Assembly: GCA_964016885.1 (NCBI GenBank)
Contig: OZ024743.1
Span: 205,468,001-205,532,000 of the forward strand
Source: Eledone cirrhosa
Taxonomy: Eukaryota
Direction of reading: 5' to 3'
Length of the DNA: 64,000 nucleotides
The notes under the pieces were generated by a model. The model was given only the letters and a program-made list of their open reading frames with translations. It had not been told where the DNA came from and made no database searches. Position numbers and translations under genes: made by a program. Below, in pieces: positions 1-64,000 of this stretch; position 1 is the stretch's first letter; each line of letters begins with the position of its first letter.

Positions 1-1871
1 TTATCTCCCCTTGGACGGCTGGAAATTATCTCCCCTTGCACTGCTGGAAATTATCTCCCCTTGGACGGCTGGAATTTATCTGCCTTTGATTTTGTTTTTA
101 CAAATTATCTTCCCCTGATTTTTTTTTCAAATTATCTCCACCTGATTTTTTAAAAAATTATCTCCCCTTGGACGGCTGGAAATTATCTCCCCTTGGACGG
201 CTAGAAATTATCTCTCTTTGGACGGCTGGAAATTATCTCCTCTTGATTTTTTTTACAAATTATCTCCCCCTGATTTTTTTTACAAATCTCCCAGTGATTT
301 TTTTTTTAAATTATCTCCCCTTCGCTGGCTGGAAATTATCTCCCCTTGGACGGCTAGAAATTATCTCTCTTTGGACGGCTGGAAATTATCTCCCCTTGAT
401 TTTTTTTACAAATTATCTCCCCCTGATTTTTTTTTACAAATTATCTCCCCCTGATTTTTTTTTACAAATTATCTCCCCCTGATTTTTTTTTACAAATTAT
501 CTCCCCCTGATTTTTTTTACAAATTACCTCTTTTGGACGGCTGGAAATTATCTCCTCTTGGACGGCTGGAAATTATCTCCCTTTGGACGGCTGGAAATTA
601 TCTCCCCTTGGACGGCTGGAAATTATCTCCCCTTGGACGGCTAGAAATTACCTCTCCTTGGACGGCTGAAAATTATCTCCCCTTGGACGGCTGCAAATTA
701 TCTCCCCTTGATTTTTTTTACAAATTATCTCCCCCTGATTTTTTTTTACAAATTATCTCCCCCTGATTTTTTTTTACAAATTATCTACCCCTGATTCTTT
801 TTACAAATTATCTCCCCCTGATTTTTTTTTACAATTTATCTCCCCCTGATTTTTTTTTACAAATTATCTCCCCCTGATTTTTTTTTTACAAATTATCTCC
901 CCCTGATTTTTTTACAAATTATCTCCCCCTGATTTTTTTTACAATCTCCGCCTGATTTTTTTTTAAATTATCTTCCCTTGGCTGGCGGGAAATTATCTCC
1001 CCTTGGACGGCTGGAAATTATCTCCCCTTGCACGGCTGGAAATTATCTCCCCTTGGACAGCTGGAAATTATCTGCCCTTGATTTTGTTTTTACAAATTAT
1101 CTCCCCCTGATTTTTTTTACAAATTATCTCCACCTGATTTTTTAAAAAATTATCTCGCCTTGGACGGCTGGAAATTATCTCCCCTTGGCTGGAAATTATC
1201 TCCCCTTGGACGGCTAGAAATTATCTCTCTTTGGACGGCTGGAAATTATCTCCCTTTGATTTTTTTACAAATTATCTCCCTCTGATTTTTTTTACAAATC
1301 TCCCCCTGATTTTTTGAAAAAAAATTATCTCCCCTTCGCTAGCTGGAAATTATCTCCCCTTGGACACTGCAAATTATAGCCCCTTGGAGGGCTGGAAATT
1401 ATCTTCCCTTGGACAGCTGGAAATTATCTCCCCTTGATTTTTTTTACAAATTATCTCCCCCTGATTTTTTTTTACAAATTATCTCCCCCTGATTTTTTTT
1501 TTACAAATTATCTCCCCCTGTTTTTTGACAAATTATCTCCCCCTGATTTATTTTACAAATTATCTCCGCCTGACTTTTTAAAATATTATCTTCCCTTGGC
1601 TGGCGGGAAATAATCTCCCCTTGGACGGCTGGAAATTATCTGACCTTGATTTTGTTTTTACAAATTATCTCCCCCTGATTTTTTTTACAAATTATCTCCT
1701 TCTGATTTTTGAAAAGATTATCTCCCCTTCGCTGGCTGGCAATTATCTCCCCTTGGACGCTGGAAATTATAGCCCCCTGATTTTTTTACAAATTATCTCC
1801 CCCTGATTTTTTTTTACAAATTATCTCCACCTGATTTTTTTTTTACAAATTATCTCCCCTTGGACGGCTGG

Positions 1872-1896
1872 AAATTATCTCCCCTTGGACGGCTGG
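1872..1896 (+). repeat. Representative G-type monomer, AAATTATCTCCCCTTGGACGGCTGG (25 bp)
   Basis: Read directly. Occurs in runs of 1 to ~10 (e.g. ~3820-4092). ORF starts spaced by 25/50 bp (7649/7674, 168/218) agree with the period. Confidence 0.98.
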
Positions 1897-4800
1897 AAAT
1901 TATCTCCCCTTGGACGGCTAGAAATTACCTCTCCTTGGACGGCTGAAAATTATCTCCCCTTGGACGGCTGGAAATTATCTCCCCTTGATTTTTTTTTACA
2001 AATTATGTCCCCGTGATTTTTTTTTACAAATTATCTACCCCTGATTTTTTTTTTACAAATTATCTCCCCCTGATTTTTTTTACAAATTATCTCCCCCTGA
2101 TTTTTTTTTTACAAATTATCTCCCCCTGATTTTTTTACAAATTATCTCCCCCTGATTTTTTTACAAATTATCTCCGCCTCATTTTTTTAAATATTATCTT
2201 CCCTTGGCTGGCGGGAAATTATCTCCCCTTGGACGGCTGGAAATTATCTCCCCTTGGAAGGATGGAAATTATCTCCCCTTGGACGGCTGGAAATTATCTC
2301 CCCTTGCACTGCTGGAAATTATCTCCCCTTGGACGGCTGGAAATTATCTGCCCTTGATTTTGTTTTTACAAATTATCTCCACCTGATTTTTTTTTCAAAT
2401 TATCTCCACCTGATTTTTTAAAAAATTATCTCCCCTTGGACGGCCGGAAATTATCTCCCCTTGGACGGCTAGAAATTATCTCTCTTTGGACGGCTGGAAA
2501 TTATCTCCTCTTGATTTTTTTTACAAATTATCTCCCCCTGATTTTTTTTACAAATCTCCCAGTGATTTTTTAAAAAAAAATTATCTCCCCTTCGCTGGCT
2601 GGAAATTATCTCCCCTTGGACGGCTAGAAATTATCTCTCTTTGGACGGCTGGAAATTATCTCCCCTTGATTTTTTTTACAAATTATCTCCCCCTGATTTT
2701 TTTTTACAAATTATCTCCCCCTGATTTTTTTTTACAAATTATCTCCCCCTGATTTTTTTTACAAATTATCTCCCCTTGGACGGCTGGAAATTATCTCCCC
2801 TTGGCTGGAAAATATCTCCCCTTGGACGGCTAGAAATTATCTCTCTTTGGACGGCTGGAAATTATCTCCCCTTGATTTTTTTTACAAATTATCTCCCCCT
2901 GATTTTTTTTACAAATCTCCCAGTGATTTTTTTAAAAAAATTATCTCCCCTTCGCTGGCTGGAAATTATCTCCCCTTGGACGGCTGGAAATTATCTCCCC
3001 TTGGACGGCTGGAAATTATCTCCCCTTGGACGGCTAGAAATTACCTCTCCTTGGACGGCTGGAAATTATCTCCCATTGATTTTTTTACAAATTATCTACC
3101 CCTGATTTTTTTTTACAAATTATCTCCCCCTGATTTTTTTTACAAATTATCTCCCCCTGATTTTTTTACAAATTATCTCCGCCTGATTTTTTTAAATATT
3201 ATCTTCCCTTGGCTGGCGGGAAATTATCTCGCCTTTGACGGCTGGAAATTATCTCCCCTTGGAAGGATGGAAATTATCTCCCCTTGGACGCTGGAAATTA
3301 TAGCCCCTTGGAGGGCTGGAAATTATCTTCCCTTGGCCGGCTGGAAATTATCTCCCCTTGATTTTTTTTACAAATTATCTCCCCCTGATTTTTTTTTACA
3401 AATTATCTCCCCCTGATTTTTTTTTACAAATTATCTCCCCCTGATTTTTTTTACAAATTATCTCCGCCTGATTTTTTTAAAAAAATTATCTCCCCTTGGA
3501 CGGCTGGAAATTATCTCCCCTTGGACGGCTGGAAATTATCTCCCCTTGGACGGCTAGAAATTACCTCTCCTTGGACGGCTGAAAATTATCTCCCCTTGGA
3601 CGGCTGGAATTTATCTCCCCTTGGACGGCTGGAAATTATCTCCCCTTGCACTGCTGGAAATTATCTCCCCTTGGACGGCTGGAAATTATCTCCCCTTGAT
3701 TTTTTTTACAAATTATCTCCCCCTGATTTTTTTTTACAAATTATCTCCCCCTGATTTTTTTTACAAATTATCTCCCCTTGATTTTTTTTTACTAATTATC
3801 TCCCCCTGATTTTTTTTACAAATTAGCTCCCCTTGGCTGGCTGGAAATTATCTCCCCTTCGAGGCTGGAATTTATCTTCCCTTGGACGGCTAGAAATTAC
3901 CTCTCCTTGGACGGCTGGAAATTATGTCTCCTTGGACGGCTGGAAATTATCTCCCCTTGGACGGCTGGAAATTATCTCCCCTTGGACGGCTGGAAATTAT
4001 CTCCCCTTGGACGGCTAGATATTACCTCTCCTTGGACGGCTGGAAATTATCTGCCCTTGGACGGCTGGAAATTATCTCCCCTTGGACGGCTGGAAATTAT
4101 TTCCCCTTGATTTTTTTTACAGATTATCTCCCCCTGATTTTTTTTTACAAATCTCCCCCTAATTTAAAAAAAAATTATCTCCCCTTCGCTGGCTGGAAAT
4201 TATCTTCCTTTGGACGGCTGGAAATTATAGCCGCTTGTAGGGCTGGAAATTATCTCCCCTTGGACGGCTGGAAATTATCTCCCCTTGATTTTTTTTACTA
4301 ATTATCTTACCCTGAATTTTTTTTACAAATTATCTCCGCCTGATTTTTTTAAAAAAATTATCTCCCCTTGGCTGGATGGAAATTATCTCCCCTTGGACGG
4401 CTGGAAATTATCTCCCCTTGATTTCTTCTACAAAGTATCTACCCCTGATTTTTTTTTTACAAATTATTTCTCCCTGATTTTTTTTTACAAATATCTCCCC
4501 TTGGCTGGCTGGAAATTACCTCCCCTTGGCTGGCTGGAAATTATCTCCCCCTGATATTTTTTTACAAATTAGCTCCCCCTGATTTTTTTTTACAAATTAT
4601 CTCCCCCTGATTTTTTTTTACCAATCTACCCCTGATTTAAAAAAAAAATTATCTCCCCTTCGCTGGCTGGAAATTATCTCCCCTTGGACGGCTGGAAATT
4701 ATCTCCCCTTGGAAGGATGGAAATTATCTCCCCTTGGACGGCTGGAAATTATCTCCCCTTGCACGGCTGGAAATTATCTCCCCTTGGACGGCTAGAAATT

Positions 4801-6613
4801 ACCTCTCCTTGGACGGCTGAAAATTATCTCCCCTTGGACGGCTGGAAATTATCTCCCCCTGATTTTTTTTAAAAATTATCTCCCCTTGCACGGCTGGAAA
4901 TTATCTCCCCTTGGACGGCTGGAAATTATCTGCCCTTGATTTTGTTTTTACAAATTATCTCCCCCTGATTTTTTTTACAAATTATCTCCACCTGATATTT
5001 AAAAAAATTATCTCCCCTTGGACGGCTGGAAATTATCTCCCCTTGGCTGGAAATTATCTCCCCTTCGCTGGCTGGAAATTATCTCCCCTTGGACGCTGGA
5101 AATTATAGCCCCTTGGAGGCTGGAAATTATCTTCCCTTGGACGGCTGGAAATTATCTCCCCTTGATTTTTTTTACAAATTATCTCCCCCTGATTTTTTTT
5201 TACAAATTATCTCCCCCTGATTTTTTTTTTACAAATTATCTCCGCCTGATTTTTTTTTTTAAATTATCTCCCCTTGGACGGCTGGACATTATCTCCCCTT
5301 GGACGGCTGGAAATTATCTCCCCTTGGACGGCTAGAATTTACCTCTCCTTGGACGGCTGAAAATTATCTCCCCTTGATTTTTTTTACAAATTATCTCCCC
5401 CTGATTTTTTTTTTTACAAATTATCTCCCCCTGATTTTATTTTACATATTATCTACCCCTGATTTTTTTTTACAAATTATCTCCGCCTGATTTTTTTACA
5501 AATTATCTCCCCCTGATTTTTTTACAAATTATCTCCCCCTGATTTATTTTACAAATTATCTCCGCCTGATTTTTTTAAATATTATCTTCCCTTGGCTGGC
5601 GGGAAATAATCTCCCCTTGGACGGCTGGAAATTATCTCCTCTTGGAAGGATGGAAATTATCTCCCCTTGGACGGCTGGAAATTATCTCCCCTTGCACGGC
5701 TGGAAATTATCTCCCCTTGGACGGCTAGAAATTATCTCTCTTTGGACGGCTGGAAATTATCTCCCCTTGATTTTTTTTACAAATTATCTCCCCCTGATTT
5801 TTTTTACAAATCTCCCAGTGATTTTTTAAAAAAAATAATCTCCCTTTCGCTGGCTGGAAATTATCTCCCATTGGACGCTGGAAATTATAGCCCCTTGGAG
5901 GGCTGGAAATTATCTTCCCTCGGACGGCTGGAAATTATCTCCCCTTGATTTTTTTTACATATTATCTCCCCCTGATTTTTTTTTAACAAATTATCTCCCC
6001 GATTTTTTTTTACAAATTATCTCCCCCTGATTTTTTTTTTACAAATTATCTCCGCCTGATTTTTAAAAAAAAATTATCTCCCCTTGGACGGCTGGAAATT
6101 ATCTCCCCTTGGACGGCTGGAAATTATCTCCCCTTGGACGGCTGGAAATTATTTCCCCTTGATTTTTTTTTACAAATTATCTCCCCCTGATTTTTTTTAC
6201 AAATCTCCCCCTAATTTAAAAAAAAATTATCTCCCCTTCGCTGGCTGGAAATTATCTCCCTTTGGACGGCTGGAAATTATAGCTGCTTGTAGGGCTGGAA
6301 ATTATCTCCCCTTGGACGGCTGGAAATTATCTCCCCTTTATGTCTTCTACAAATTATCTACCCCTGATTTTTTTTTTACAAATTATCTCCGCCTGATTTT
6401 TTTTTACAAATTATCTGCGCCTGATTTTTTTTTACAAATTAGCTCCGCCTGATTTTTTAAAAAATTATCTCCCCTTGGACGGCTGGAAATTATCTCCCCT
6501 TGGACGGCTGGAAATTATCTCCCCTTGGACGGCTAGAAATTATCTCACTTTGGACGACTGGAAATTATCTCCCCTTGGACGGCTGCAAATTATCTCCCCT
6601 TGATTTTTTTTAC

Positions 6614-6640
6614 AAATTATCTCCCCCTGATTTTTTTTAC
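6614..6640 (+). repeat. Representative T-type monomer, AAATTATCTCCCCCTGATTTTTTTTAC (27 bp with T8; T tract mostly 7-11)
   Basis: Read directly. Occurs in runs of up to ~9 (e.g. ~6590-6830, ~700-965). Confidence 0.98.
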
Positions 6641-8179
6641 AAATTATCTCCCCCTGATTTTTTTTTACAAATTATCTACCCCTGATTTTTTTACAAATTA
6701 TCTCCCCCTGATTTTTTTTTACAAATTATCTCCCCCTGATTTTTTTTACAAATTATCTCCCCCTGATTTTTTTTTACAAATTATCTCCCCCTGATTTTTT
6801 TACAAATTATCTCCCCCTGATTTTTTTAAAAATTATCTTCCCTGGGCTGGCGGGAAATTATCTCCCCTTGGACGGCTGGAAATTATCTTCCCTTGCACGG
6901 CTGGAAATTATCTCCCCTTGGACAGCTGGAAATTATCTGCCCTTGATTTTGTTTTTACAAATTATCTCCCCCTGATTTTTTTTACAAATTATCTCCACCT
7001 GATTTTTTAAAAAATTATCTCCCCTTGGACGGCTGGAAATTATCTCCCCTTGGCTGGAAATTATCTCCCCTTGGACGGCTAGAAATTATCTCTCTTTGGA
7101 CGGCTGGAAATAATCTCCCTTTGATTTTTTTACAATTTATCTCCCTCTGATTTTTTTTACAAATCTCCCCCTGATTTTTTTAAAAAATTTATCTCCCCTT
7201 CGCTGGCTGGAAATTATCTCCCCTTGGACACTTGAAATTATATCCCCTTGGAGGGCTGGAAATTATCTTCCCTTGGACGGCTGGAAATTATCTCCCCTTG
7301 ATTTTTTTTACAAATTATCTCCCCCTGATTTTTTTTACAAATTATCTGCCCCTGATTTTTTTTTACAAATTATCTCCGCCTGATTTTTTTTTAAATTATC
7401 TCTCCTTGGACGGCTGGAAATTATCTCCCCTTGATTTTTTTTACAAATTATCTCCCCCTGATTTTTTTTTACAAATTATCTACCCCTGATTTTTTTTTAC
7501 AAATTATCTCCCCCTGATTTTTTTTACAAATTATCTCCCCCTGATTTTTTTTTTACAAATTATCTCCCCCTGATTTTTTTACAAATTATCTCCCCCTGAT
7601 TTTTTTTTCAAATTATCTCCGCCTGATTTTTTTAAATATTATCTTCCCTTGGCTGGCGGGAAATTATCTCCCCTTGGACGGCTGGAAATTATCTCCCCTT
7701 GGAAGGATGGAAATTATCTCCCCTTGGACGGCTGGAAATTATCTCCCCTTGCACTGCTGGAAATTATCTCCCCTTGGACGGCTGGAAATTATCTCCCCTT
7801 GGCTGAAAATTATCTCCCCTTGGACGGCTAGAAATTATCTCTCTTTGGACGGCTGGAAATTATCTCCCCTTGATTTTTTTACAAATTATCTCCCCCTGAT
7901 TTTTTTACAAATCTCCCAGTGTTTTTTTTTTTAAATTATCTCCCCTTCGCTGGCTGGAAATTATCTCCCCTTGGACGCTGGAAATTATAGCCCCTTGGAG
8001 GGCTGGAAATTATCTTCCCTTGGACGGCTGGAAATTATCTCCCCTTGATTTTTTTTACAAATTATCTCCCCCTGATTTTTTTTACAAATTATCTCCCCCT
8101 GATTTTTTTTTACAAATTATCTCCCCCTGATTTTTTTTACAACTTATCTCCGCCTGATTTTTTAAAAAAAATTATCTCC

Positions 8180-8810
8180 CCTTGGACGGCTAGAAATTAC
8201 CTCTCCTTGGACGGCTGAAAATTATCGCCCCTTGGACGGCTGCAAATTATCTCCCCTTGATTTTTTTTACAAATTATCTCCCCCTGATTTTTTTTTACAA
8301 ATTATCTCCCCCTGATTTTTTTTACAAATTATCTCCCCCTGATTTTTTTTTACAAATTATCTCCCCCTGATTTTTTTTACAAATTATATCCCCTTGGCTG
8401 GCTGGAAATTATCTCCCCTTGGAGGCTGGAATTTATCTCCCCTTGGACGGCTAGAAATTACCTCTCCTTGGACGGCTGGAAATTATGTCTCCTTGGACGG
8501 CTAGAAATTACCTCTCCTTGGACGGCTGAAAATTATCTCCCCTTGGACGGCTGGAAATTATCTCCCCTTGATTTTTTTTACAAATTATCTCCCCCTGATT
8601 TTTTTTTACAAATTATCTCCCCCTGATTTTTTTTACAAATTATCTCCCCCTGATTTTTTTTTACAAATTATCTCCCCCTGATTTTTTTTACAAATTATAT
8701 TCCCTTGGCTGGCTGGAAATTATCTCCCCTTGGAGGCTGGAATTTATCTCCCCTTGGACGGCTAGAAATTACCTCTCCTTGGACGGCTGGAAATTATGTC
8801 TCCTTGGACG
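8180..8810 (+). repeat. Local ~0.3 kb tandem duplication inside the long HOR subfamily
   Basis: The module ending ...TTGGAGGCTGGAATTTATC...AATTATGTCTCCTTGG repeats at offset 311 here (8468/8779) and 283 at ~16.5-17.1 kb and ~21.2-21.8 kb (21491/21774). The difference is one 28-bp T-type monomer. Confidence 0.85.
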
Positions 8811-9639
8811 GCTGGAAATTATCTCCCCTTGGACGGCTGGAAATTATCTCCCCTTGGACGGCTGGAAATTATCTCCCCTTGGACGGCTAGATATTACCTC
8901 TCCTTGGACGGCTGGAAATTATCTGCCCTTGGACGGCTGGAAATTATCTCCCCTTGGACGGCTGGAAATTATTTCCCCTTGATTTTTTTTACAAATTATC
9001 TCCCGCTGATTTTTTTTTACAAATCTCCACCTAATTAAAAAAAAAATTATCTCCCCTTCGCTGGCTGGAAATTATCTTGCTTTGGACGGCTGGAAATTAT
9101 AGCCGCTTGTAGGGCTGGAAATTATCTCCCCTTGGACGGCTGGAAATTATCTCCCCTTGATTTTTTTTACTAAGTATCTCACCCTGATTTTTTTTTACAA
9201 ATTATCTCCGCCTGATTTTTAAAAAAAAATTATCTCCCCTTGGCTGGATGGAAATTATCTCCCCTTGGACGGCTGGAAATTATCTTCCCTTGATTTCTTC
9301 TACAAATTATCTACCCCTGATTTTTTTTTTACAAATTATCTCTCCCTGATTTTTTTTTACAAATATCTCTCCTTGGCTGGCTGGAAATTATCTCCCCTTG
9401 GCTGGCTGGAAATTATCTCCCCCTGATATTTTTTTACAAATTAGCTCCCCCTGATTTTTTTTACAAATTATCTCCCCCTGATTTTTTTCACAAATTATCT
9501 CCCCCTGATTTTTTTTACAAATTATCTCCCCTGATTTAAAAAAAAAAATTATCTCCCCTTGGACGGCTGGAAATTATCTCCCCTTGGACGGCTGGAAATT
9601 ATCGCCCCCTGATTTTTTTTTTACAAATTATCTCCACCT

Positions 9640-10640
9640 GATTTTTTTTACAAATCATCTCAGCCTGATTTTTTTAAAATATTATCTCCCTTGGCTTGCT
9701 GGAAATAATCTCCCCTTGGACGGCTATAAATTATCTCTCCTTCGACCGCTGGAAATTATCTCCCCTTGATTTTTTTACAAATTATCTCCCCCTGATTTTT
9801 TTTTACCAATCAACCCCTGATTTAAAAACAAAAATTATCTCCCCTTCGCTGGCTGGAAATTATCTCCCCTTGGACGGCTGGAAATTATCTCCCCTTGATT
9901 TTTTTTACAAATTATCTACCCCTGATTTTTTTACAAATTATCTCCCCCTGATTTTTTTTACAAATTATCTCCCCCTGATTTTTTTTTTTACAAATTATCT
10001 CCGCCTGATTTTTTTAAAATTATCTCCCCTTGGCTGGATGGAAATTATCTCCCCTTGGACGGCTGGAAATTATCTCCCCTTGGAAGGATGGAAATTATCT
10101 CCCCTTGGACGGCTGGAAATTATCTCCCCTTGCACGGCTGGAAATTATCTCCCCTTGGACGGCTGGAAATTATGTCCACCTGATTTTTTTTTACAAATCA
10201 TCTCCGCCTGATTTTTTTAAAAACTTATCTCCCTTGGCTTGCTGGAAATTATCTCCCCTTGGACGGCTATAAATTATCTCTCCTTCGACGGCTGGAAATT
10301 ATCTCCCCTTGATTTTTTTACAAATTATCTCCCCCTGATTTTTTTTTACCAATCAACCCCTGATTTAAAAAAAAAATTATCTCTCCTTCGCTGGCTGGAA
10401 ATTATCTCCCCTTGGACGGCTGGAAATTATCTCCCCTTGATTTTTTTTACAAATTATCTACCCCTGATTTTTTTACAAATTATCTCCCCCTGATTTTTTT
10501 TTACAAATTATCTCCCCTTGATTTTTTTTTTTTTACAAATTATCTCCGCCTGATTTTTTTTAAATTATCTCCCCTTGGCTGGATGGAAATTATCTCCCCT
10601 TGGACCGCTGGAAATTATCTCCCCTTGCACGGCTGGAAAT
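9640..10640 (+). repeat. Local ~0.55-0.6 kb diverged duplication (AAATCATC...GGCTTGCTGG...GGCTATAAA...TTCGAC module)
   Basis: ORF offsets of 543 (9696/10239), 592 (18008/18600) and 594 (22664/23258). Confidence 0.85.
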
Positions 10641-13600
10641 TATCTTCCCTTGGACGGCTAGAAATTACCTCTCCTTGGACGGCTGAAAATGATCTCCCCT
10701 TGGACGGCTGGAAATTATCTCCCCCTGATTTTTTTTACAAATTATCTCCCCTTGCACGGCTGGAAATTATCTCCCCTTGGACGGCTGGAAATTATCTGCC
10801 CTTGATTTTGTTTTTACAAATTATCACCCCCTGATTTTTTTTACAAATTATCTCCACCTGATATTTTAAAAAATTATCTCCCCTTGGACGGCTGGAAATT
10901 ATCTCCCCTTGGCTGGAAATTATCTCCCCTTGGACGGCTAGAAATTATCTCTCTTTGGACGGCTGGAAATTATCTCCCCTTGATTCTTTTTACAAATTAT
11001 CTCCCCCTGATTTTTTTTACAAATCTCCCAGTGATTTTTTAAAAAAAATTATCTCCCCTTCGCTGGCTGGAAATTATCTCCCCTTGGACGCTGGAAATTA
11101 TAGCCCCTTGGACGCTGGAAATTATCTTCCCTTGGACGGCTGGAAATGATCTCCCCTTGATTTTTTTACAAATTATCTCCCCTGATTTTTTTTTACAAAT
11201 TATCTCCCCCTGATTTTTTTTTTACAAATTATCTCCCCTTGGACGGGTGGAAATTATCTCCCCTTGGACGGCTTGAAATTATCTCCCCTTGGACGGCTAG
11301 AAATTACCTCTCCTTGGACGGCTGAAAATTATCTCCCCTTGATTTTTTTTACAAATTATCTCCCCCTGATTTTATTTTACATATTATCTACCCCTGATTT
11401 TTTTTTACAAATTATCTCCACCTGATCTTTTTTACAAATTATCTCCCCCTGATTTTTTTTTTTACAAATTATCTCCCCCTGATTTTTTTACAAATTATCT
11501 CCCCCTGATTTTTTTTTCAATTTATCTCCGCCTGATTTTTTTAAATATTATCTTCCCTTGGCTGGCGGGAAATTATCTCCCCTTGGACGGCTGGAAATTA
11601 TCTCCCCTTGGAAGGATGGAAATTATCTCCCCTTGGACGGCTGGAAATTATCTCCCCTTGCACTGCTGGAAATTATCTCCCCTTGGACGGCTGGAAATTA
11701 TCTCCCCTTGGCTGGAAATTATCTCCCCTTGGACGGCTAGAAATTATCTCTCTTTGGACGGCTGGAAATTATCTCCCCTTGATTTTTTTACAAATTATCT
11801 CCCCTTGATTTTTTTTACAAATCTCCCAGTGATTTTTTTTTAAAAATTATCTCCCCTTCGCTGGCTGGAAATTATCTCCCCTTGGACGCTGGAAATTATA
11901 GCCCCTTGGAGGGCTGGAAATTATCTTCCCTTGGACGGCTGGAAATTATCTCCCCTTGATTTTTTTTACAAATTATCTCCCCCTGATTTTTTTTTACAAA
12001 TTATCTCCCCCTGATTTTTTTTTACAAATTATCTCCCCCTGATTTTTTTACAACTTATCTCCGCCTGATTTTTTTAAAAAAATTATCTCCCCTTGGACGG
12101 CTGGAAATTATCTCCCCTTGGACGGCTGGAAATTATCTCTCCTTGGACGGCTAGAAATTACCTCTCCTTGGACGGCTGAAAATTATCTCCCCTTGGACGG
12201 CTGGAAATTATCTCCCCTTGATTTTTTTTACAAATTATCTCCCCCTGATTTTTTTTTACAAATTATCTCCCCCTGATTTTTTTACAAATTATCTCCCCCT
12301 GATTTTTTTTTACAAATTATCTCCCCCTGATTTTTTTTACAAATTATATCCCCTTGGCTGGCTGGAAATTATCTCCCCTTGGAGGCTGGAATTTATCTGC
12401 CCTTGGACGGCTAGAAATTACCTCTCCTTGGACGGCTGGAAATTATGTCTCCTTGGACGGTTGGAAATTATCTCCCCTTGGACGGCTGGAAATTATCTCC
12501 CCTTGGACGGCTGGAAATTATCTCCCCTTGGACGGCTAGATATTACCTCTCCTTGGACGGCTGGAAATTATCTGCCCTTGGACGGCTGGAAATTATCTCC
12601 CCTTGGACGGCTGGAAATTATTTCCCCTTGATTTTTTTTACAAATTATCTCCCCCTGATTTTTTTTTACAAATCTCCACCTAATTAAAAAAAAAATTATC
12701 TCCCCTTCGCTGGCTGGAAATTATCTTCCTCTGGACGGCTGGAAATTATAGCCGCTTGTAGGGCTGGAAATTATCTCCCCTTGGACGGCTGGAAATTATC
12801 TCCCCTTGATTTTTTTTACTAAGTATCTCACCCTGATTTTTTTTTACAAATTATCTCCGCCTGATTTTTAAAAAAAAATTATCTCCCCTTGGCTGGATGG
12901 AAATTATCTCCCCTTGGACGGCTGGAAATTATCTTCCCTTGATTTCTTATACAAATTATCTACCCCTGATTTTTTTTTACAAATTATCTCTCCCTGATTT
13001 TTTTTTACAAATATCTCCCCTCCGCTGGCTGACAAATCATCTCCGCCTGATTTTTTTAAAAACTTATCTCCCTTGGCTTGCTGGAAATTATCTCCCCTTG
13101 GACGGCTATAAATTATCTCTCCTTCGACGGCTGGAAATTATCTCCCCTTGATTTTTTTACAAATTATCTCCCCCTGATTTTTTTTTACCAATCAACCTCT
13201 GATTTAAAAAAAAATTATCTCTCCTTCGCTGGCTGGAAATTATCTCCCCTTGGACGGCTGGAAATTATCTCCCCTTGATTTTTTTTACAAATTATCTACC
13301 CTGATTTTTTTACAAATTATCTCCCCCTGATTTTTTTTTACAAATTATCCCCCCCTGATTTTTTTTTTTACAAATTATCTCCGCCTGATTTTTTTAAAAT
13401 TATCTCCCCTTGGCTGGATGGAAATTATCTCCCCTTGGACGGCTGGAAATTATCTCCCCTTGCACGGCTGGAAATTATCTTCCCTTGGACGGCTAGAAAT
13501 TACCTCTCCTTGGACGGCTGAAAATTATCTCCCCTTGGACGGCTGGAAATTATCTCCCCCTGATTTTTTTTACAAATTATCTCCCCTTGCACGGCTGGAA

Positions 13601-18600: not shown

Positions 18601-21600
18601 TGCTGGAAATTATCTCCCCTTGGACGGCTATAAATTATCTCTCCTTCGACGGCTGGAAATTATCTCCCCTTGATTTTTTTACAAATTATCTCCCCCTGAT
18701 TTTTTTTTACCAATCTACCCCTGATTTAAAAAAAAATTATCTTTCCTTCGCTGGCTGGAAATTATCTCCCCTTGGACGGCTGGAAATTATCTCCCCTTGA
18801 TTTTTTTTACAAATTATCTACCCCTGATTTTTTTACAAATTATCTCCCCCTGATTTTTTTTTACAAATTATCTCCCCTTGATTTTTTTTTTTTACAAATT
18901 ATCTCCGCCTGATTTTCTTAAAATTATCTCCCCTTGGCTGGATGGAAATTATCTCCCCTAGGACGGCTGGAAATTATCTCCCCTTGCACGGCTGGAAATT
19001 ATCTTCCCTTGGACGGCTAGAAATTACCTCTCCTTGGACGGCTGAAAATTATCTCCCCTTGGACGGCTGGAAATTATCTCCCCCTGATTTTTTTTACAAA
19101 TTATCTCCCCTTGCACGGCTGGAAATTATCTCCCCTTGGACGGCTGGAAATTATCTGCCCTTGATTTTGTTTTTACAAATTATCTCCCCCTGATTTTTTT
19201 TACAAATTATCTCCACCTGATATTTTAAAAAATTATCTCCCCTTGGACGGCTGGAAATTATCTCCCCTTGGCTGGAAATTATCTCCCCTTGGACGGCTAG
19301 AAATTATCTCTCTTTGGACGGTTGGAAATTATCTCCCCTTGATTCTTTTTACAAATTATCTCCCCCTGATTTTTTTTACAAATCTCCCAGTGATTTTTTA
19401 AAAAAAATTATCTCCCCTTCGCTGGCTGGAAATTATCTCCCCTTGGACGCTGGAAATTATAGCCCCTTGGATGCTGGAAATTATCTTCCCTTGGACGGCT
19501 GGAAATTATCTCCCCTTGATTTTTTTACAAATTATCTCCCCCTGATTTTTTTTTACAAATTATCTCCCCCTGATTTTTTTTTTACAAATTATCTCCCCTT
19601 GGACGGGTGGAAATTATCTCCCCTTGATTTTTTTACAAATTATCTCCCCCTGATTTTTTTTTACCAATCTACCCCTGATTTAAAAAAAAAAATTATCTCC
19701 CCTTCGCTGGCTGGAAATTATCTCCCCTTGGACGGCTTGAAATTATCTCCCCTTGGACGGCTAGAAATTACCTCTCCTTGGACGGCTGAAAATTATCTCC
19801 CCTTGATTTTTTTACAAATTATCTCCCCCTGATTTTTTTTACAAATCTCCCAGTGATTTTTTTTAAAAAATTATCTCCCCTTCGCTGGCTGGAAATTATC
19901 TCCCCTTGGACGCTGGAAATTATAGCCCCTTGGAGGGCTGGAAATTATCTTCCCTTGGACGGCTGGAAATTATCTCCCCTTGATTTCTTTTACAAATTAT
20001 CTCCCCCTGATTTTTTTTTACAAATTATCTCCCCCTGATTTTTTTTTACAAATTATCTCCCCCTGATTTTTTTTACAACTTATCTCCGCCTGATTTTTTT
20101 AAAAAAATTATCTCCCCTTGGACGGCTGGAAATTATCTCCCCTTGGACGGCTGGAAATTATCTCTCCTTGGACGGCTAGAAATTACCTCTCCTTGGACGG
20201 CTGAAAATTATCTCCCCTTGGACGGCTGGAAATTATCTCCCCTTGATTTTTTTTACAAATTATCTCCCCCTGATTTTTTTTTACAAATTATCTCCCCCTG
20301 ATTTTTTTTACAAATTATCTCCCCCTGATTTTTTTTTACAAATTATCTCCCCCTGATTTTTTTTACAAATTATATCCCCTTGGACGGCTGGAAATTATCT
20401 CCCCTTGGACGGCTGGAAATTATCTCCCCTTGGACGGCTAGAAATTACCTCTCCTTGGACGGCTTAAAATTATCTCCCCTTGATTTTTTTTTACAAATTA
20501 TCTACCCCTGATTTTTTTTTACAAATTATCTACGCCTGATTTTTTTTTCCAAATTATCTCCCCCTGATTTTTTTTTACAAATTATCTCCCCCTGTTTTTT
20601 TTTACAAATTATTTCCCCCTGATTATTTTACAAATTATCTCCGCCTGATTTTTTTAAATATTATCTTCCCTTGGCTGGCGGGAAATTATCTCCCCTTGGA
20701 CGCCTGGAAATTATCTCCCCTTGGAAGGATGGAAATTATCTCCCCTTGGACGGCTGGAAATTATCTCCCCTTGCACTGCTGGAAATTATCTCCCCTTGGA
20801 CGGCTGGAAATTATCTCCCCTTGGCTGGAAATTATCTCCCCTTGGACGGCTAGAAATTATCTCTCTTTGGACGGCTGGAAATTATCTCCCCTTGATTTTT
20901 TTACAAATTATCTCCCCCTGATTTTTTTACAAATCTCCCAGTGTTTTTTTTTTAAAATTATCTCCCCTTCGCTGGCTGGAAATTATCTCCCCTTGGACGC
21001 TGGAAATTATAGCCCCTTGGAGGGCTGGAAATTATCTTCCCTTGGACGGCTGGAAATTATCTCCCCTTGATTTTTTTTACAAATTATCTCCCCCTGATTT
21101 TTTTTTACAAATTATCTCCCCCTGATTTTTTTTTACAAATTATCTCCCCCTGATTTTTTTTACAACTTATCTCCGCCTGATTTTTAAAAAAAAATTATCT
21201 CCCCTTGGACGGCTAGAAATTACCTCTCCTTGGACGGCTGAAAATTATCTCCCCTTGGACGGCTGGAAATTATCTCCCCTTGATTTTTTTTACAAATTAT
21301 CTCCCCCTGATTTTTTTTTACAAATTATCTCCCCCTGATTTTTTTTACAAATTATCTCCCCCTGATTTTTTTTTACAAATTATCTCCCCCTGATTTTTTT
21401 TACAAATTATATCCCCTTGGCTGGCTGGAAATTATCTCCCCTTGGAGGCTGGAATTTATCTCCCCTTGGACGGCTAGAAATTACCTCTCCTTGGACGGCT
21501 GGAAATTATGTCTCCTTGGACGGCTAGAAATTACCTCTCCTTGGACGGCTGAAAATTATCTCCCCTTGGACGGCTGGAAATTATCTCCCCTTGATTTTTT

Positions 21601-24600
21601 TTACAAATTATCTCCCCCTGATTTTTTTTACAAATTATCTCCCCCTGATTTTTTTTTACAAATTATCTCCCCCTGATTTTTTTTACAAATTATATCCCCT
21701 TGGCTGGCTGGAAATTATCTCCCCTTGGAGGCTGGAATTTATCTCCCCTTGGACGGCTAGAAATTACCTCTCCTTGGACGGCTGGAAATTATGTCTCCTT
21801 GGACGGCTGGAAATTATCTCCCCTTGGACGGCTGGAAATTATCTCCCCTTGGACGGCTGGAAATTATCTCCCCTTGGACGGCTAGATATTACCTCTCCTT
21901 GGACGGCTGGAAATTATCTGCCCTTGGACGGCTGGAAATTATCTCCCCTTGGACGGCTGGAAATTATTTCCCCTTGATTTTTTTTACAAATTATCTCCCG
22001 CTGATTTTTTTTTACAAATCTCCACCTAATTAAAAAAAAAATTATCTCCCCTTCGCTGGCTGGAAATTATCTTGCTTTGGACGGCTGGAAATTATAGCCG
22101 CTTGTAGAGCTGGAAATTATCTCCCCTTGGACGGCTGGAAATTATCTCCCCTTGATTTTTTTTACTAAGTATCTCACCCTGATTTTTTTTTACAAATTAT
22201 CTCCGCCTGATTTTTAAAAAAAAATTATCTCCCCTTGGCTGGATGGAAATTATCTCCCCTTGGACGGCTGGAAATTATCTTCCCTTGATTTCTTCTACAA
22301 ATTATCTACCCCTGATTTTTTTTACAAATTATCTCTCCCTGATTTTTTTTTACAAATATCTCTCCTTGGCTGGCTGGAAATTATCTCCCCTTGGCTGGCT
22401 GGAAATTATCTCCCCCTGATATTTTTTTACAAATTAGCTCCCCCTGATTTTTTTTACAAATTATCTCCCCCTGATTTTTTTCACAAATTATCTCCCCCTG
22501 ATTTTTTTTACAAATTATCTCCCCTGATTTAAAAAAAAAAAGTATCTCCCCTTGGACGGCTGGAAATTATCGCCCCCTGATTTTTTTTTTACAAATTATC
22601 TCCACCTGATTTTTTTTACAAATCATCTCAGCCTGATTTTTTTAAAATATTATCTCCCTTGGCTTGCTGGAAATTATCTCCCCTTGGACGGCTATAAATT
22701 ATCTCTCCTTCGACGGCTGGAAATTATCTCCCCTTGATTTTTTTACAAATTATCTCCCCCTGATTTTTTTTTACCAATCAACCCCTGATTTAAAAACAAA
22801 AATTATCTCCCCTTCGCTGGCTGGAAATTATCTCCCCTTGGACGGCTGGAAATTATCTCCCCTTGATTTTTTTTTACAAATTATCTACCCCTGATTTTTT
22901 TACAAATTATCTCCCCCTGATTTTTTTTACAAATTATCTCCCCCTGATTTTTTTTTTTTACAAATTATCTCCGCCTGATTTTTTTAGAATTATCTCCCCT
23001 TGGCTGGATGGAAATTATCTCCCCTTGGACGGCTGGAAATTATCTCCCCTTGGAAGGATGGAAATTATCTCCCCTTGGACGGCTGGAAATTATCTCCCCT
23101 TGCACGGCTGGAAATTATCTCCCCTTGGACGGCTAGAAATTACCTCTCCTTGGACGGCTGAAAATTATCTCCCCTTGGACGGCTGGAAATTATGTCCACA
23201 TGATTTTTTTTACAAATCATCTCCGCCTGATTTTTTTAAAAACTTATCTCCCTTGGCTTGCTGGAAATTATCTCCCCTTGGACGGCTATAAATTATCTCT
23301 CCTTCGACGGCTGGAAATTATCTCCCCTTGATTTTTTTACAAATTATCTCCCCCTGATTTTTTTTTACCAATCTACCCCTGATTTAAAAAAAAATTATCT
23401 CTCCTTCGCTGGCTGGAAATTATCTCCCCTTGGACGGCTGGAAATTATCTCCCCTTGATTTTTTTTACAAATTATCTACCCCTGATTTTTTTACAAATTA
23501 TCTCCCCCTGATTTTTTTTTACAAATTATCTCCCCTTGATTTTTTTTTTTTACAAATTATCTCCGCCTGATTTTCTTAAAATTATCTCCCCTTGGCTGGA
23601 TGGAAATTATCTCCCCTAGGACGGCTGGAAATTATCTCCCCTTGCACGGCTGGAAATTATCTTCCCTTGGACGGCTAGAAATTACCTCTCCTTGGACGGC
23701 TGAAAATTATCTCCCCTTGGACGGCTGGAAATTATCTCCCCCTGATTTTTTTTACAAATTATCTCCCCTTGCACGGCTGGAAATTATCTCCCCTTGGACG
23801 GCTGGAAATTATCTGCCCTTGATTTTGTTTTTACAAATTATCTCCCCCTGATTTTTTTTACAAATTATCTCCACCTGATATTTTAAAAAATTATCTCCCC
23901 TTGGACGGCTGGAAATTATCTCCCCTTGGCTGGAAATTATCTCCCCTTGGACGGCTAGAAATTATCTCTCTTTGGACGGCTGGAAATTATCTCCCCTTGA
24001 TTCTTTTTACAAATTATCTCCCCCTGATTTTTTTTACAAATCTCCCAGTGATTTTTTAAAAAAAATTATCTCCCCTTCGCTGGCTGGAAATTATCTCCCC
24101 TTGGACGCTGGAAATTATAGCCCCTTGGACGCTGGAAATTATCTTCCCTTGGACGGCTGGAAATTATCTCCCCTTGATTTTTTTACAAATTATCTCCCCC
24201 TGATTTTTTTTTACAAATTATCTCCCCCTGATTTTTTTTTTACAAATTATCTCCCCTTGGACGGGTGGAAATTATCTCCCCTTGATTTTTTTACAAATTA
24301 TCTCCCCCTGATTTTTTTTTACCAATCTACCCCTGATTTAAAAAAAAAAATTATCTCCCCTTCGCTGGCTGGAAATTATCTCCCCTTGGACGGCTTGAAA
24401 TTATCTCCCCTTGGACGGCTAGAAATTACCTCTCCTTGGACGGCTGAAAATTATCTCCCCTTGATTTTTTTTACAAATTATCTCCCCCTGATTTTTTTTT
24501 ACATATTATCTACCCCTGATTTTTTTTTACAAATTATCTCCACCTGATCTTTTTTACAAATTATCTCCCCCTGATTTTTTTTTTACAAATTATCTCCCCC

Positions 24601-25450
24601 TGATTTTTTTTTCAAATTATCTCCGCCTGATTTTTTTAAATATTATCTTCCCTTGGCTGGCGGGAAATTATCTCCCCTTGGACGGCTGAAAATTATCTCC
24701 CCTTGGAAGGATGGAAATTATCTCCCCTTGGACAGCTGGAAATTATCTCCCCTTGCACTGCTGGAAATTATCTCCCCTTGGACGGCTGGAAATTAGCTCC
24801 CCTTGGCTGGAAATTATCTCCCCTTGGACGGCTAGAAATTATCTCTCTTTGGACAGCTGGAAATTATCTCCCCTTGATTTTTTTACAAATTATCTCCCCC
24901 TGATTTTTTTTACAAATCTCCCAGTGATTTTTTTTTAAAAATTATCTCCCCTTCGCTGGCTGGAAATTATCTCCCCTTGGACGCTGGAAATTATAGCCCC
25001 TTGGAGGGCTGGAAATTATCTTCCCTTGGACGGCTGGAAATTATCTCCCCTTGATTTCTTTTACAAATTATCTCCCCCTGATTTTTTTTTACAAATTATC
25101 TCCCCCTGATTTTTTTTTACAAATTATCTCCCCCTGATTTTTTTTACAACTTATCTCCGCCTGATTTTTTTTTAAAAATTATCTCCCCTTGGACGGCTGG
25201 AAATTATCTCCCCTTGGACGGCTGGAAATTATCTCTCCTTGGACGGCTAGAAATTACCTCTCCTTGGACGGCTGAAAATTATCTCCCCTTGGACGGCTGG
25301 AAATTATCTCCCCTTGATTTTTTTTACAAATTATCTCCCCCTGATTTTTTTTTACAAATTATCTCCCCCTGATTTTTTTTACAAATAATCTCCCCCTGAT
25401 TTTTTTTTACAAATTATCTCCCCCTGATTTTTTTTACAAATTATATCCCC
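15700..25450 (+). repeat. Adjacent tandem pair of ~4.7-5.1 kb HOR units (about 15700-20379 and 20380-25450)
   Basis: ORF offsets of 4679 (15992/20671, 16812/21491) and 4656-4658 (17896/22552, 19314/23972). Shared rare variants GGCTTAAAA, TACGCCTG, GACGCCTGG, TTGTAGAGC, CCCTAGG. Confidence 0.93.
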
Positions 25451-26232
25451 TTGGCTGGCTGGAAATTATCTCCCCTTGGAGGCTGGAATTTATCTCCCCT
25501 TGGACGGCTAGAAATTACCTCTCCTTGGACGGCTGGAAATTATGTCTCCTTGGACGGTTGGAAATTATCTCCCCTTGGACGGCTGGAAATTATCTCCCCT
25601 TGGACGGCTGGAAATTATCTCCCCTTGGACGGCTAGATATTACCTCTCCTTGGACGGCTGGAAATTATCTGCCCTTGGACGGCTGGAAATTATCTCCCCT
25701 TGGACGGCTGGAAATTATTTCACCTTGATTTTTTTTACAAATTATCTCCCCCTGATTTTTTTTTACAAATCTCCACCTAATTAAAAAAAAAATTATCTCC
25801 CCTTCGCTGGCTGGAAATTATCTTCCTCTGGACGGCTGGAAATTATAGCCGCTTGTAGGGCTGGAAATTATCTCCCCTTGGACGGCTGGAAATTATCTCC
25901 CCTTGATTTTTTTTACTAAGTATCTCACCCTGATTTTTTTTTACAAATTATCTCCGCCTGATTTTTAAAAAAAAATTATCTCCCCTTGGCTGGATGGAAA
26001 TTATCTCCCCTTGGACGGCTGGAAATTATCTTCCCTTGATTTCTTCTACAAATTATCTACCCCTGATTTTTTTTTTACAAATTATCTCTCCCTGATTTTT
26101 TTTTACAAATATCTCCCCTTCGCTGGCTGACAAATCATCTCCGCCTGATTTTTTTAAAAACTTATCTCCCTTGGCTTGCTTGAAATTATCTCCCCTTGGA
26201 CGGCTATAAATTATCTCTCCTTCGACGGCTGG

Positions 26233-58975: not shown

Positions 58976-59459
58976 ATCTCCCCTTCGCTGGCTGGAAATT
59001 ATCTCCCTTTGGACGGCTGGAAATTATAGCTGCTTGTAGGGCTGGAAATTATCTCCCCTTGGACGGCTGGAAATTATCTCCCCTTGATTTTTTTTACTAA
59101 TTATCTCCCCCTGATTTTTTTTTACAAATATCTCCCCTTGGCTGCCTGGAAATTATCTCCCATTGGCAGGCTGGAAATGATCTCCCCTTGGACGGCTGGA
59201 AATTATCTCCCCTTGGACGCCTAGAAATTACCTCTCCTTGGACAGCTGTAAATTATCTCCCCTTGGACGGCTGGAAATTATCTCCCCTTGATTTTGTATA
59301 CAAATTATCTCCCCCTGATTTTTTTTTACAAATTATCTGCCCCTGATTATTTTTTTACAAATTAGCTCCGCCTGATTTTTTTTTTAAATTATCTCCCCTT
59401 GGACGGCTGGAAATTATCTCCCCTTGGACGGCTGGAAATTATCTCCCCTTGAACGGCTA

Positions 59460-62400: not shown

Positions 62401-64000
62401 TTTTTTACAAATTATCTCCCCCTGATTTTATTTTACATATTATCTACCCCTGATTTTTTTTTACAAATTATCTCCACCTGATCTTTTTTACAAATTATCT
62501 CCCCCTGATTTTTTTTTTACAAATTATCTCCCCCTGATTTTTTTACAAATTATCTCCCCCTAATTTATTTTACAAATTATCTCCGCCTGATTTTTTTAAA
62601 TATTATCTTCCCTTGGCTGGCGGGAAATAATCTCCCCTTGGACGGCTGGAAATTATCTCCCCTTGGAAGGATGGAAATTATCTTCCCTTGGACGGCTGGA
62701 AATTATCTCCCCTTGCACGGCTGGAAATTATCTCACCTTGGACGGCTGGAAATTATCTCCCCTTCGCTGGAAATTATCTCCCCTTGGATGGCTAGAAATT
62801 ATCTCTCTTTGGACGGCTGGAAATTATCTCCCCTTGATTCTTTTTACAAATTATCTCCCCCTGATTTTTTTTACAAATCTCCCAGTGATTTTTAAAAAAA
62901 ATTATCTCCCTTTCGCTGGCTGGAAATTATCTCCCCTTGGACGCTGGAAATTATAGCCCCTTGGAGGGCTGGAAATTATCTTCCCTTGGACGGCTGGAAA
63001 TTATCTCCCCTTGATTTTTTTTACATATTATCTCCCCCTGATTTTTTTTACAACTTATCTCCGCCTGATTTTTTTAAAAAAATTATCTCCCCTTGGACGG
63101 CTGGAAATTATCTCCCCTTGGACGGCTGGAAATTATCTCTCCTTGGACGGCTAGAAATTACCTCTCCTTGGACGGCTGAAAATTATCTCCCCTTGGACGG
63201 CTGGAAATTATCTCCCCTTGATTTTTTTTACAAATTATCTCCCCCTGATTTTTTTTTACAAATTATCTCCCCCTGATTTTTTTTACAAATTATATTCCCT
63301 TGGCTGGCTGGAAATTATCTCCCCTTGGAGGCTGGAATTTATCTCCCCTTGGACGGCTAGAAATTACCTCTCCTTGGACGGCTGGAAATTATGTCTCCTT
63401 GGACGGCTGGAAATTATCTCCCCTTGGACGGCTGGAAATTATCTCCCCTTGGACGGCTGGAAATTATCTCCCCTTGATTTTGTATACAAATTATCTCCCC
63501 CTGATATTTTTTTACAAATTATCTGCCCCTGATTATTTTTTACAAATTATCTCCCCCTGATTTTTTTTTACAAATCTCCACCTAATTAAAAAAAAAATTA
63601 TCTCCCCTTCGCTGGCTGGAAATTATCTCCCCTTGGACGCTGGAAATTATAGCCCCTTGGAGGGCTGGAAGTTATCTTCGCTTCGAGGGCTGGAAATTAT
63701 CTTCCCTTGGACGGCTAGAAATTATCTCCCCTTGATTTTTTTTACAAATTATCTCCCCCTGATTTTTTTTTTACAAATTATCTCCGCCTGATTTTTTTTT
63801 AAAATTATCTCCCCTTGGACGGCTGGAAATTATCTCCCCTTGGACGGCTGGAAATTATCTCCCCTTGGACGGCTAGAAATTACGTCTCCTTGGACGGCTG
63901 AAAATTATCTCCCCTTGGACGGCTGGAAATTATCTCCCCTTGATTTTTTTTTACAAATTGTCTCCCCCTGATTTTTTTTTACAAATTATCTACCCGTGAT
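59460..64000 (+). repeat. Third partial copy of the ~24.4-30.1 kb segment, with only one copy of the 1,165-bp unit
   Basis: The offset to copy 2 is 6309-6310 (54236/60545, 55300/61610), then 5145 (56964/62109, 57518/62663). The difference is 1165. Confidence 0.9.

What the first reader, a model, noticed from the sequence alone, without database searches (positions are those of the whole stretch)
1..64000. Binary satellite: a constant 16-nt core with two unrelated alternative tails
Seen: nearly every monomer is AAATTATCTCCCC(C/T)TG followed by either GACGGCTGG (GC-rich, fixed 9 nt, contains a CpG) or ATTTTTTTTAC (poly-T, variable length). The tails are not point-mutation derivatives of each other, yet the core spacing stays ~25-28 bp. 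The array reads as a two-letter string in blocks of ~1-10. Inference: a conserved core and spacing with interchangeable linkers suggests a protein-bound motif array (centromeric, pairing-site, subtelomeric or eliminated-DNA type). Neutral mixing of two sister satellites by recombination through the shared core is equally possible. I do not recognise it as a described family and cannot check a database.
Basis: partly seen in the sequence, partly recalled or inferred. Interest (0 to 1): 0.75.

Follow-up and report, generated by a model that had tools for sequence, protein, structure and literature searches.

The report
Two-block octopod satellite with fossil layers
This window is part of a roughly 1-million-base array of two short repeat types that share a core and alternate in blocks, found mid-chromosome on five chromosomes of what is likely an octopus; the on/off pattern was likely copied from one old two-block unit rather than written by free tail swapping, the core is no better conserved than the tails, and related repeats at the array edges likely record the steps by which the satellite arose.

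Summary
The array is real: 2,474 monomers (1,308 A, 1,166 B) fill the window, part of a 0.97-Mb block on a 379-Mb chromosome of a likely octopod. The family totals about 16-18 Mb, found mid-chromosome on the four giant chromosomes and one small one. But the core is not constant (55% exact) and, matched for base type, is no more conserved than the tails (G/C sites 0.083 vs 0.088). The tails are not freely interchangeable: first-A, first-B and last-B units carry their own marks in all 12 array samples, so most junctions were likely inherited from one ancestral two-block cassette; only 12-21% look like later swaps through the core. Array edges hold related repeats on the same core (a 19-bp unit, a 25-bp unit with an AT spacer), likely older stages. 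Best reading: a neutrally evolving compound heterochromatic satellite; a centromere role is untested, and no array was found on most chromosomes. Not found in the papers searched. The scan already noted this satellite on other contigs of this genome.

The parts
1..64000 (+). Compound A/B satellite, part of one array at G000:C4:205,461.7-206,427.7 kb (right end at an assembly gap)
   Evidence: decomposition; edges; interior probes
155..179 (+). Canonical A monomer, 25 bp (AAATTATCTCCCCTTG + GACGGCTGG)
   Evidence: 308 exact copies in the window
410..437 (+). Canonical inner B monomer, 28 bp, C at position 14, poly-T tail ending in AC
383..409 (+). First-B junction unit (T at position 14, as in A)
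   Evidence: 750 of 826 first-B vs 64 of 3,188 other B units
284..307 (+). Last-B junction unit (degenerate core, no terminal AC)
   Evidence: 675 of 821 last-B vs 76 of 3,193 other B units
308..332 (+). First-A junction unit (tail with CT at positions 18-19; the C matches the A' edge-layer unit)
   Evidence: 546 of 863 first-A vs 27 of 3,175 other A units
2266..12120 (+). Block duplicated at about 33,488-43,315 (98.4% over 9,874 columns)
19868..30300 (+). Block duplicated at about 48,602-59,086 (two pieces, 97.7% and 99.0%)

Best explanation
This is a compound satellite of two related short units arranged in alternating blocks, which likely descends from one ancestral two-block cassette and likely grew without selection on its sequence by unequal exchange and kilobase duplications. 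Shown: units at block edges carry fixed marks in arrays on five chromosomes; run lengths vary freely; 5-10-kb pieces are duplicated without a fixed higher-order period; three array edges carry related repeats on the same 12-nt core, joined in register. Inferred: (1) a roughly 1.1-kb composite with 19-bp units was shortened to a composite of 25-bp A' units plus a 300-bp AT spacer; (2) an A core was once joined to a poly-T piece, possibly one unit of the neighbouring 13-bp poly-T satellite (about even odds), giving B; (3) B multiplied and the A/B cassette was amplified to megabases and spread between chromosomes; (4) misaligned exchange between like units now changes run lengths, and occasional A-with-B exchange through the core makes the minority of new junctions. 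The arrays are likely mid-chromosome heterochromatin, one of several satellite families there.
For: Junction marks hold in 12 of 12 array samples (8,160 monomers). Free swapping through positions 1-13 of the core would put C at position 14 in about 87% of A-to-B junctions (13 of 15 usable positions, my arithmetic); 101 of 860 have it. Core equals tail in divergence by base class: A-unit G/C sites 0.083 vs 0.088; rare one-step variants per site 11.8 (core G/C), 9.4 (tail G/C), 6.4 (core A/T), 7.0 (tail A/T). No link between A-run and B-run length (rho 0.01, n=533 outside the window; -0.11, p=0.07, n=300 inside); median cycle 185 bp in the window but 175-286 bp in the 11 other samples. Gap-free layered edge at C3:165.860-165.874 Mb: A/B, then A' plus spacer, then 19-bp units plus an 830-1,014-bp spacer. 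A' plus spacer also at the C1 right edge and inside the C1 array and at the C21 outer edge. The last A' before a spacer keeps the 19-mer's ending in 51 of 68 cases vs 6 of 1,125 others. The B-tail motif GA-T5-10-AA occurs 1,464 times in 26 kb of the neighbouring 13-bp satellite, 3 times in 118 kb of other probes, and its shorter form in 2 of 22 other tandem-repeat probes; one gap-free junction runs from a B tail into the decayed form of that satellite on the same strand.
Against: The direction of the series rests on edge position and junction marks; A' units are not more diverged than A units (0.054-0.073 vs 0.063-0.070), so age order is not shown by divergence. The 12-nt core survived every remodelling while the tail changed each time, which a binding site would also explain (though 'core' is defined after the fact). 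Core A/T sites vary less than tail A/T sites per monomer (0.026 vs 0.101 in A on only 2 tail sites; 0.009 vs 0.032 in B), though not in the rare-variant count for A. The B-tail match is low in complexity, and both contacts with the pure 13-bp satellite cross assembly gaps. Monomer counts are not independent events. No chromatin data.
Confidence: 0.72

Rival explanations
1. The arrays are the functional centromeres (or a protein-bound pericentromeric platform) of the giant chromosomes, and the core, which holds a GATA-type word (recalled motif), is a binding site kept through four tail remodellings.
For: Main arrays lie at 0.57, 0.60, 0.44, 0.54 and 0.50 of the length of C1, C2, C3, C4 and C21; megabase size, shared between chromosomes, older-looking layers at edges as in alpha satellite (PMC4496801, section 2.2); two-arm layout on C2 and C3; the core is common to four unit types.
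Against: No extra conservation of the core by base class. None of 134 fully listed rare-variant hits falls on C5-C28, and 1 of 100 listed does (C21); about 16 of an estimated 15-20 Mb is already placed. Several separate arrays per chromosome (C1: 251 and 279 Mb; C4: 140 and 205 Mb). A 196/227-bp satellite lies 6 Mb away on C4, and unchecked scan notes name other families as stronger candidates. Cycle length is not held near a nucleosome length.
Confidence: 0.15
2. The family began as a chromosome-end-associated composite repeat, and its arrays mark the seams where the four giant chromosomes were formed by fusion; amplification followed in the new interior heterochromatin. This can hold together with the best explanation.
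For: Four chromosomes of 379-443 Mb against at most 136 Mb for the others measured hold nearly all placed copies; about 40 kb of degenerate (CCCTAA)n lies 30-35 kb beyond the right arm on C2; opposite-facing arms on C2 and C3 do not share their rare variants in mirror order.
Against: No synteny test was possible. Both two-arm layouts have a 200-N gap at one inner edge, so their orientation rests on scaffolding. No telomere repeat was seen in the probes of either centre. C21 is small and has an array. Unchecked scan notes report many internal telomere-like blocks and inward-facing arrays as general in this genome. The telomere link of the parent repeat comes from a scan note and was not tested.
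Confidence: 0.2
3. Two sister satellites, pure A and pure B, are being mixed continually by recombination through the shared core.
For: Some junctions look new: 178 of 855 B-to-A junctions have an ordinary inner B, in 57 distinct combinations; 101 of 860 A-to-B junctions have C at position 14. Nematode satellites are joined at shared boxes (PMC3694981, section 13).
Against: 79-88% of junctions carry the same marks on five chromosomes. No pure B array was met; four exact B units in a row occur only 44 times in the genome, all inside mixed arrays where these were probed. The one pure A-type array seen (about 27 units, C1:231.58 Mb) ends in the start of the spacer and so looks like a moved piece of the composite.
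Confidence: 0.07
4. The pattern is an assembly or sequencing artefact.
For: Poly-T lengths are error-prone; six array edges examined end at 200-N gaps.
Against: Context-specific variants recur on five chromosomes; duplicated blocks share variants at 98-99%; four public runs of one organism hold 42-56% of the sampled words (one study, possibly the source, so not independent).
Confidence: 0.02

Closest known systems
Meloidogyne box-sharing satellites (17-bp Box 1, PMC3694981, abstract and section 13 read; 19-bp box, PMC8097292, abstract read)
   Same: Different monomers share one short motif, and monomer junctions fall at the motif.
   Different: There the box stays conserved among monomers only 32-64% alike, and the 19-bp box repeats are CenH3-bound; here the core is the inherited part of 19-28-bp units, is not more conserved than the tails, and most junctions are copies of old ones.
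Primate alpha satellite: A/B monomer types, irregular R1/R2 alternation in SF5, older layers at array edges (PMC4496801, section 2.2 read)
   Same: Two monomer types with a common frame and an alternative segment, irregular alternation, related older-looking layers at the edges.
   Different: 171-bp monomers with a known protein box and proven centromere role; here 25-28-bp units in blocks, no fixed higher-order repeat, no sequence likeness claimed.
Intermixed 'ditypic' centromere-candidate satellites (bioRxiv 10.64898/2026.09.17.752431, passages read)
   Same: Two related families intermixed in one region, shared across chromosomes.
Bovine 1.706 'patchwork' satellite and minisatellite variant-repeat (MVR) codes (recalled; searches returned no usable paper)
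   Same: Short related units in interspersed blocks that read as a binary string and change by unequal exchange.
   Different: Their variants differ by point changes; here one tail was replaced wholesale, and precursor-like layers survive.

Membership tests
Satellite DNA (compound type) | Long head-to-tail non-coding arrays | tested here: met
   0.97-Mb array, 2,474 monomers in the window; no Rfam match in bases 1-6,000; longest stop-free frame is low-complexity repeat
Satellite DNA (compound type) | Homogenised across loci, with local variants | tested here: met
   Same commonest monomers on C1-C4 and C21; 80-mer sharing 0.04-0.24 between arrays, 0.66 within the C1 array
Centromeric satellite | Bound by CENP-A | not testable with these tools
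   No ChIP run among the 23 runs listed
Centromeric satellite | One focal region on all or most chromosomes | tested here: not met
   Arrays found on C1-C4, C21 and two unplaced contigs only; 0 of 134 fully listed hits on C5-C28, 1 of 100 listed. Sampling is by clonal rare variants, so small or unassembled arrays can be missed
Centromeric satellite | Unit near nucleosome length | tested here: not met
   Cycle 170-195 bp in 32% of window cycles and 13% of 533 cycles elsewhere
Alpha-satellite-type higher-order repeat | Fixed multimer repeated at high identity | tested here: not met
   Variable run lengths and one-off 2-10-kb duplications at many offsets
Meloidogyne box-type satellites | Box conserved beyond the rest of the monomer | tested here: not met
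   Core G/C 0.083 vs tail G/C 0.088; rare variants per site similar
Meloidogyne box-type satellites | Box acts as the exchange point between unlike monomers | tested here: inconclusive
   12-21% of junctions fit exchange through the core; the rest are inherited
Telomeric or subtelomeric repeat | At chromosome ends | tested here: not met
   Arrays lie at 0.37-0.63 of chromosome length; 0 of 19 contig starts other than the array contig C123 held the core, and three began with (CCCTAA)n. Right-hand ends were not fetched
Transposon-carried tandem repeat | Unit found in dispersed element copies | tested here: not met
   One lone exact core in the first 231 Mb of C1. A diverged parent element is not excluded (lead)

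The most novel reading that the evidence does not exclude
The satellite descends from a chromosome-end-type composite repeat whose 12-nt core was kept through four tail replacements because a protein binds it, and its megabase arrays mark the fusion seams and working centromeres of the four giant chromosomes: the first centromere DNA of a cephalopod, with its birth series preserved in order at one gap-free edge.
Probability: 0.12. Interest if true: 0.75.

Novelty: new member of a known kind. Interest (0 to 1): 0.36.

Why it matters
No paper on cephalopod centromere or satellite sequences turned up in searches, so a 16-18-Mb family focused in the middle of four giant chromosomes is a ready FISH and ChIP probe. 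The 14-kb gap-free edge on C3 lays out three stages of one repeat lineage side by side, a rare record of how a kilobase composite shrinks into a short two-unit satellite. It also shows that a shared core with swapped tails need not mean a conserved binding site: here base composition and inheritance of junctions explain most of the look.

Tried and rejected
B tail derived from the 300-bp AT spacer: not supported (347 of 2,000 dinucleotide shuffles reach the score; 8-mer in 165 of 2,000; last-B tail 1,530 of 2,000), and the longer spacers lack the motif. Nucleosome-length cycle: window median 185 bp is local. Direct strand-switch junctions (core facing core within 30 nt): 0 in the genome for one of the two possible orientations. 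CpG methylation decay: TG 31 and CA 46 vs AG 133 and GG 119 among 2,835 A units, no excess. G-quadruplex: G4Hunter-type mean 0.40, maximum 1.2. Restriction to the four giant chromosomes: broken by C21. Mirror-copy arms: rare variants are arm-specific. A lone core-like motif at C2:248.480 Mb resembles the spacer end plus core (1 of 1,000 shuffles, but picked after the fact); not followed up. Two long-T patterns found nothing. Phage collection: no match. Paper searches by sequence words: two unrelated cancer papers for one word, none for four others. Scan look-ups for relatives and for the outer-layer spacer: nothing. No Dfam, Repbase or nt search was available.

Full report
Observation. The window is pure satellite. 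Dynamic-programming decomposition gives 2,474 monomers, 1,308 A and 1,166 B, in 298 distinct sequences, with A runs of 1-12 and B runs of 1-10. Types switch 603 times against a mean of 1,232 in shuffles. The description is right in outline but too clean: 1,353 of 2,472 whole units have the exact core, 523 of 1,307 A units the exact tail, 774 of 1,165 B units the canonical tail.

Where it is. The window is G000:C4:205,468,001-205,532,000 in a 3.0-Gb assembly. A retroelement frame 170 kb to the left has an Octopus bimaculoides protein as its closest named relative by identity (71% over half the query), and three contig starts are (CCCTAA)n; an octopod is likely, on this one protein plus recalled repeat motifs and scan notes. 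C1-C4 measure 443, 416, 379 and 379 Mb; the next largest measured are 136 and 135 Mb (six contigs among C1-C28 were not measured, and C16 is 0.8 Mb). The C4 array starts at 205,461.65 kb without a gap and ends at a gap at 206,427.7 kb. The exact core occurs 385,057 times; at 19-25 cores per kb that is 15-20 Mb. Pattern listings and probes place arrays at C1 251.19-252.2 (+) and about 279.17-279.33 (-); C2 245.586-248.283 (+) and 248.495-251.135 (-); C3 about 162.65-165.654 (+), 165.86-167.89 (-) and 168.747-169.105 (+); C4 about 140.1 (+) and 205.46-206.43 (+); C21 17.542-17.717 (-); and unplaced C123 and C1059. If each is continuous between probes the sum is about 16 Mb. Three searches listed all their hits (44, 6, 84), none on C5-C28; one search listed 100 of 105, one on C21; two searches listed 100 of 294 and 100 of 141. 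Hits are clonal, so small arrays may be missed.

The string has a grammar. In 12 samples (the window plus 11 sets from C1-C4 and C21; 4,072 A and 4,088 B; single-B blocks left out of the B counts) the first B of a block has T at position 14 in 750 of 826 cases against 64 of 3,188 other B; the last B lacks the terminal AC in 675 of 821 against 76 of 3,193; the last B has G or A at position 12 in 481 of 821 against 78 of 3,193; the first A has CT at positions 18-19 in 546 of 863 against 27 of 3,175. Each contrast holds in each sample. Free swapping through the core would give C at position 14 in most A-to-B junctions; 101 of 860 have it. Of 855 B-to-A junctions, 178 have an ordinary inner B. So exchange through the core likely happens, but most junctions are likely copies of one old pair. 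The joint table printed used too narrow a definition of the first-A mark and was redone.

The core is not specially conserved. In A, G/C sites vary at 0.083 in the core and 0.088 in the tail; rare one-step variants per site are 11.8 and 9.4 for G/C and 6.4 and 7.0 for A/T; in B 12.0 and 8.0, 5.4 and 7.8. The core looks constant mainly because 9-10 of its 16 sites are A or T. Against this, per-monomer rates at A/T sites are lower in the core (0.026 vs 0.101 in A, on two tail sites, one of them a junction mark; 0.009 vs 0.032 in B, where run-length changes disturb the alignment). Cycle length is not held: median 185 bp in the window, 240 bp elsewhere, with no compensation between A and B runs. 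Long-range order comes from single duplications, such as 2,266-12,120 to 33,488-43,315 at 98.4%, with many different offsets.

Related layers. A search for a one-base A variant (A', tail GCCGG instead of GACGG) led to a composite on C1: runs of A' broken by a core plus a 200-430-bp AT-rich spacer, as a 43-kb island and as the right edge of the array, joined to A/B in register within A runs. The same composite caps the outer edge of C21. At the inner edge of the C3 minus arm a gap-free series runs from A/B through about 10 kb of A' plus spacer to 19-bp units (TTATCTCCCCTT + GGCTCGA) with 830-1,014-bp spacers that contain the short spacer's end plus a GC-rich block. Junction units keep states of the next layer out: the last A' before a spacer ends like the 19-mer in 51 of 68 cases against 6 of 1,125, and the first A after B keeps the C of A'. 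This fits the order 19-bp, then A', then A/B, but divergence from consensus does not rank the layers, so the order is inferred. A scan note (e1-10328835) had proposed the middle-step reading, and I reuse it.

Origin of the B tail. Derivation from the spacer failed its shuffle test. A 13-bp satellite of form GGA-Tn-AAT flanks arrays on C2 and C3, and a decayed form lies left of the window's array and in the C2 centre. Its T runs are 5-10 long, like B's 6-11, and it holds the first-B string TTGA-T7-9-A 52 times in 26 kb against once in 118 kb of other probes. One gap-free junction passes from a B tail into the decayed form on the same strand. The match is simple sequence, so I give this about even odds.

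Function. Mid-chromosome position, size and layering resemble centromeric satellite, but no array was found on most chromosomes, some chromosomes have several, and they sit among many other satellites (7-, 9-, 13-, 16-, 33- and 196-bp units). The two-arm layout on C2 and C3 has centres of about 200 kb, each with a gap at one edge. A roughly 40-kb degenerate telomere tract lies beside the C2 right arm. These leave a fusion-seam reading open but untested. I commit to passive mid-chromosome heterochromatin shaped by unequal exchange (0.72).

Known systems and novelty. Closest are Meloidogyne box-sharing satellites (PMC3694981, abstract and section 13; PMC8097292, abstract), alpha-satellite A/B types and layers (PMC4496801, section 2.2) and intermixed ditypic satellites (bioRxiv 10.64898/2026.09.17.752431, passages, with no mention of cephalopods in the main text; supplements closed and could bear on novelty). 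PMC12682272 (passages) reports extensive fusions in octopod karyotypes and does not contain the word satellite. Bovine 1.706 and MVR codes are recalled only. Sequence-word searches and topic searches found no description of this repeat. It is a new member of a known kind. The scan reported the same satellite before on other contigs of this genome; those notes are not independent support.

Noticed in passing
G000:C3:165,859,974-165,863,272 (L238-L239): Outermost layer: 19-bp units on the same core with 830-1,014-bp spacers holding a GC-rich block with many GCGCATGCGC-like palindromes (recalled as an NRF1-type word).
   Followed up: partly
G000:C2:251.17-251.20 Mb (L173, L195-L197): About 40 kb of degenerate (CCCTAA)n with a recurrent TAACAGC variant, beside the array's right arm, preceded by a 7-bp satellite and a GC-rich element.
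   Followed up: partly
G000:C2:245.59-251.14 Mb and C3:162.65-167.89 Mb: Two-arm arrays of about 5 Mb with the C-rich strand pointing inward and centres of about 200 kb; each has an assembly gap at one inner edge.
   Followed up: partly
G000:C4:205,420-205,461 kb (L097-L102): About 41 kb of decayed CCATTAAAA-type repeat in alternating orientations, between a 7-bp satellite and the array; similar sequence lies in the C2 centre and left of the C4:140.1 Mb array.
   Followed up: partly
G000:C1:231.58 Mb (L033): About 27 A' units ending in the start of the spacer, inserted in a dispersed repeat whose uninterrupted form was seen in L165; likely a captured piece of the composite.
   Followed up: partly
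G000:C4:211.8-212.23 Mb (L168, L169): 196/227-bp satellite array about 6 Mb from the window.
   Followed up: no
G000:C3:162.8-163.1 Mb and 168.75-169.0 Mb (L175, L177, L180, L181, L224): The two plus-strand arrays show near-identical stretches by eye; a segmental duplication or a duplicated haplotype in the assembly.
   Followed up: no
G000:C2:248,480,001-248,480,060 (L156): Lone motif resembling the spacer end plus core next to a transposase-like fragment; possible distant source of the core.
   Followed up: partly
G000:C21:17,541,979 and C3:167.90-167.93 Mb: A 9-bp satellite (AAATTCCTA) abuts A/B arrays on two chromosomes, without a gap on C21.
   Followed up: no
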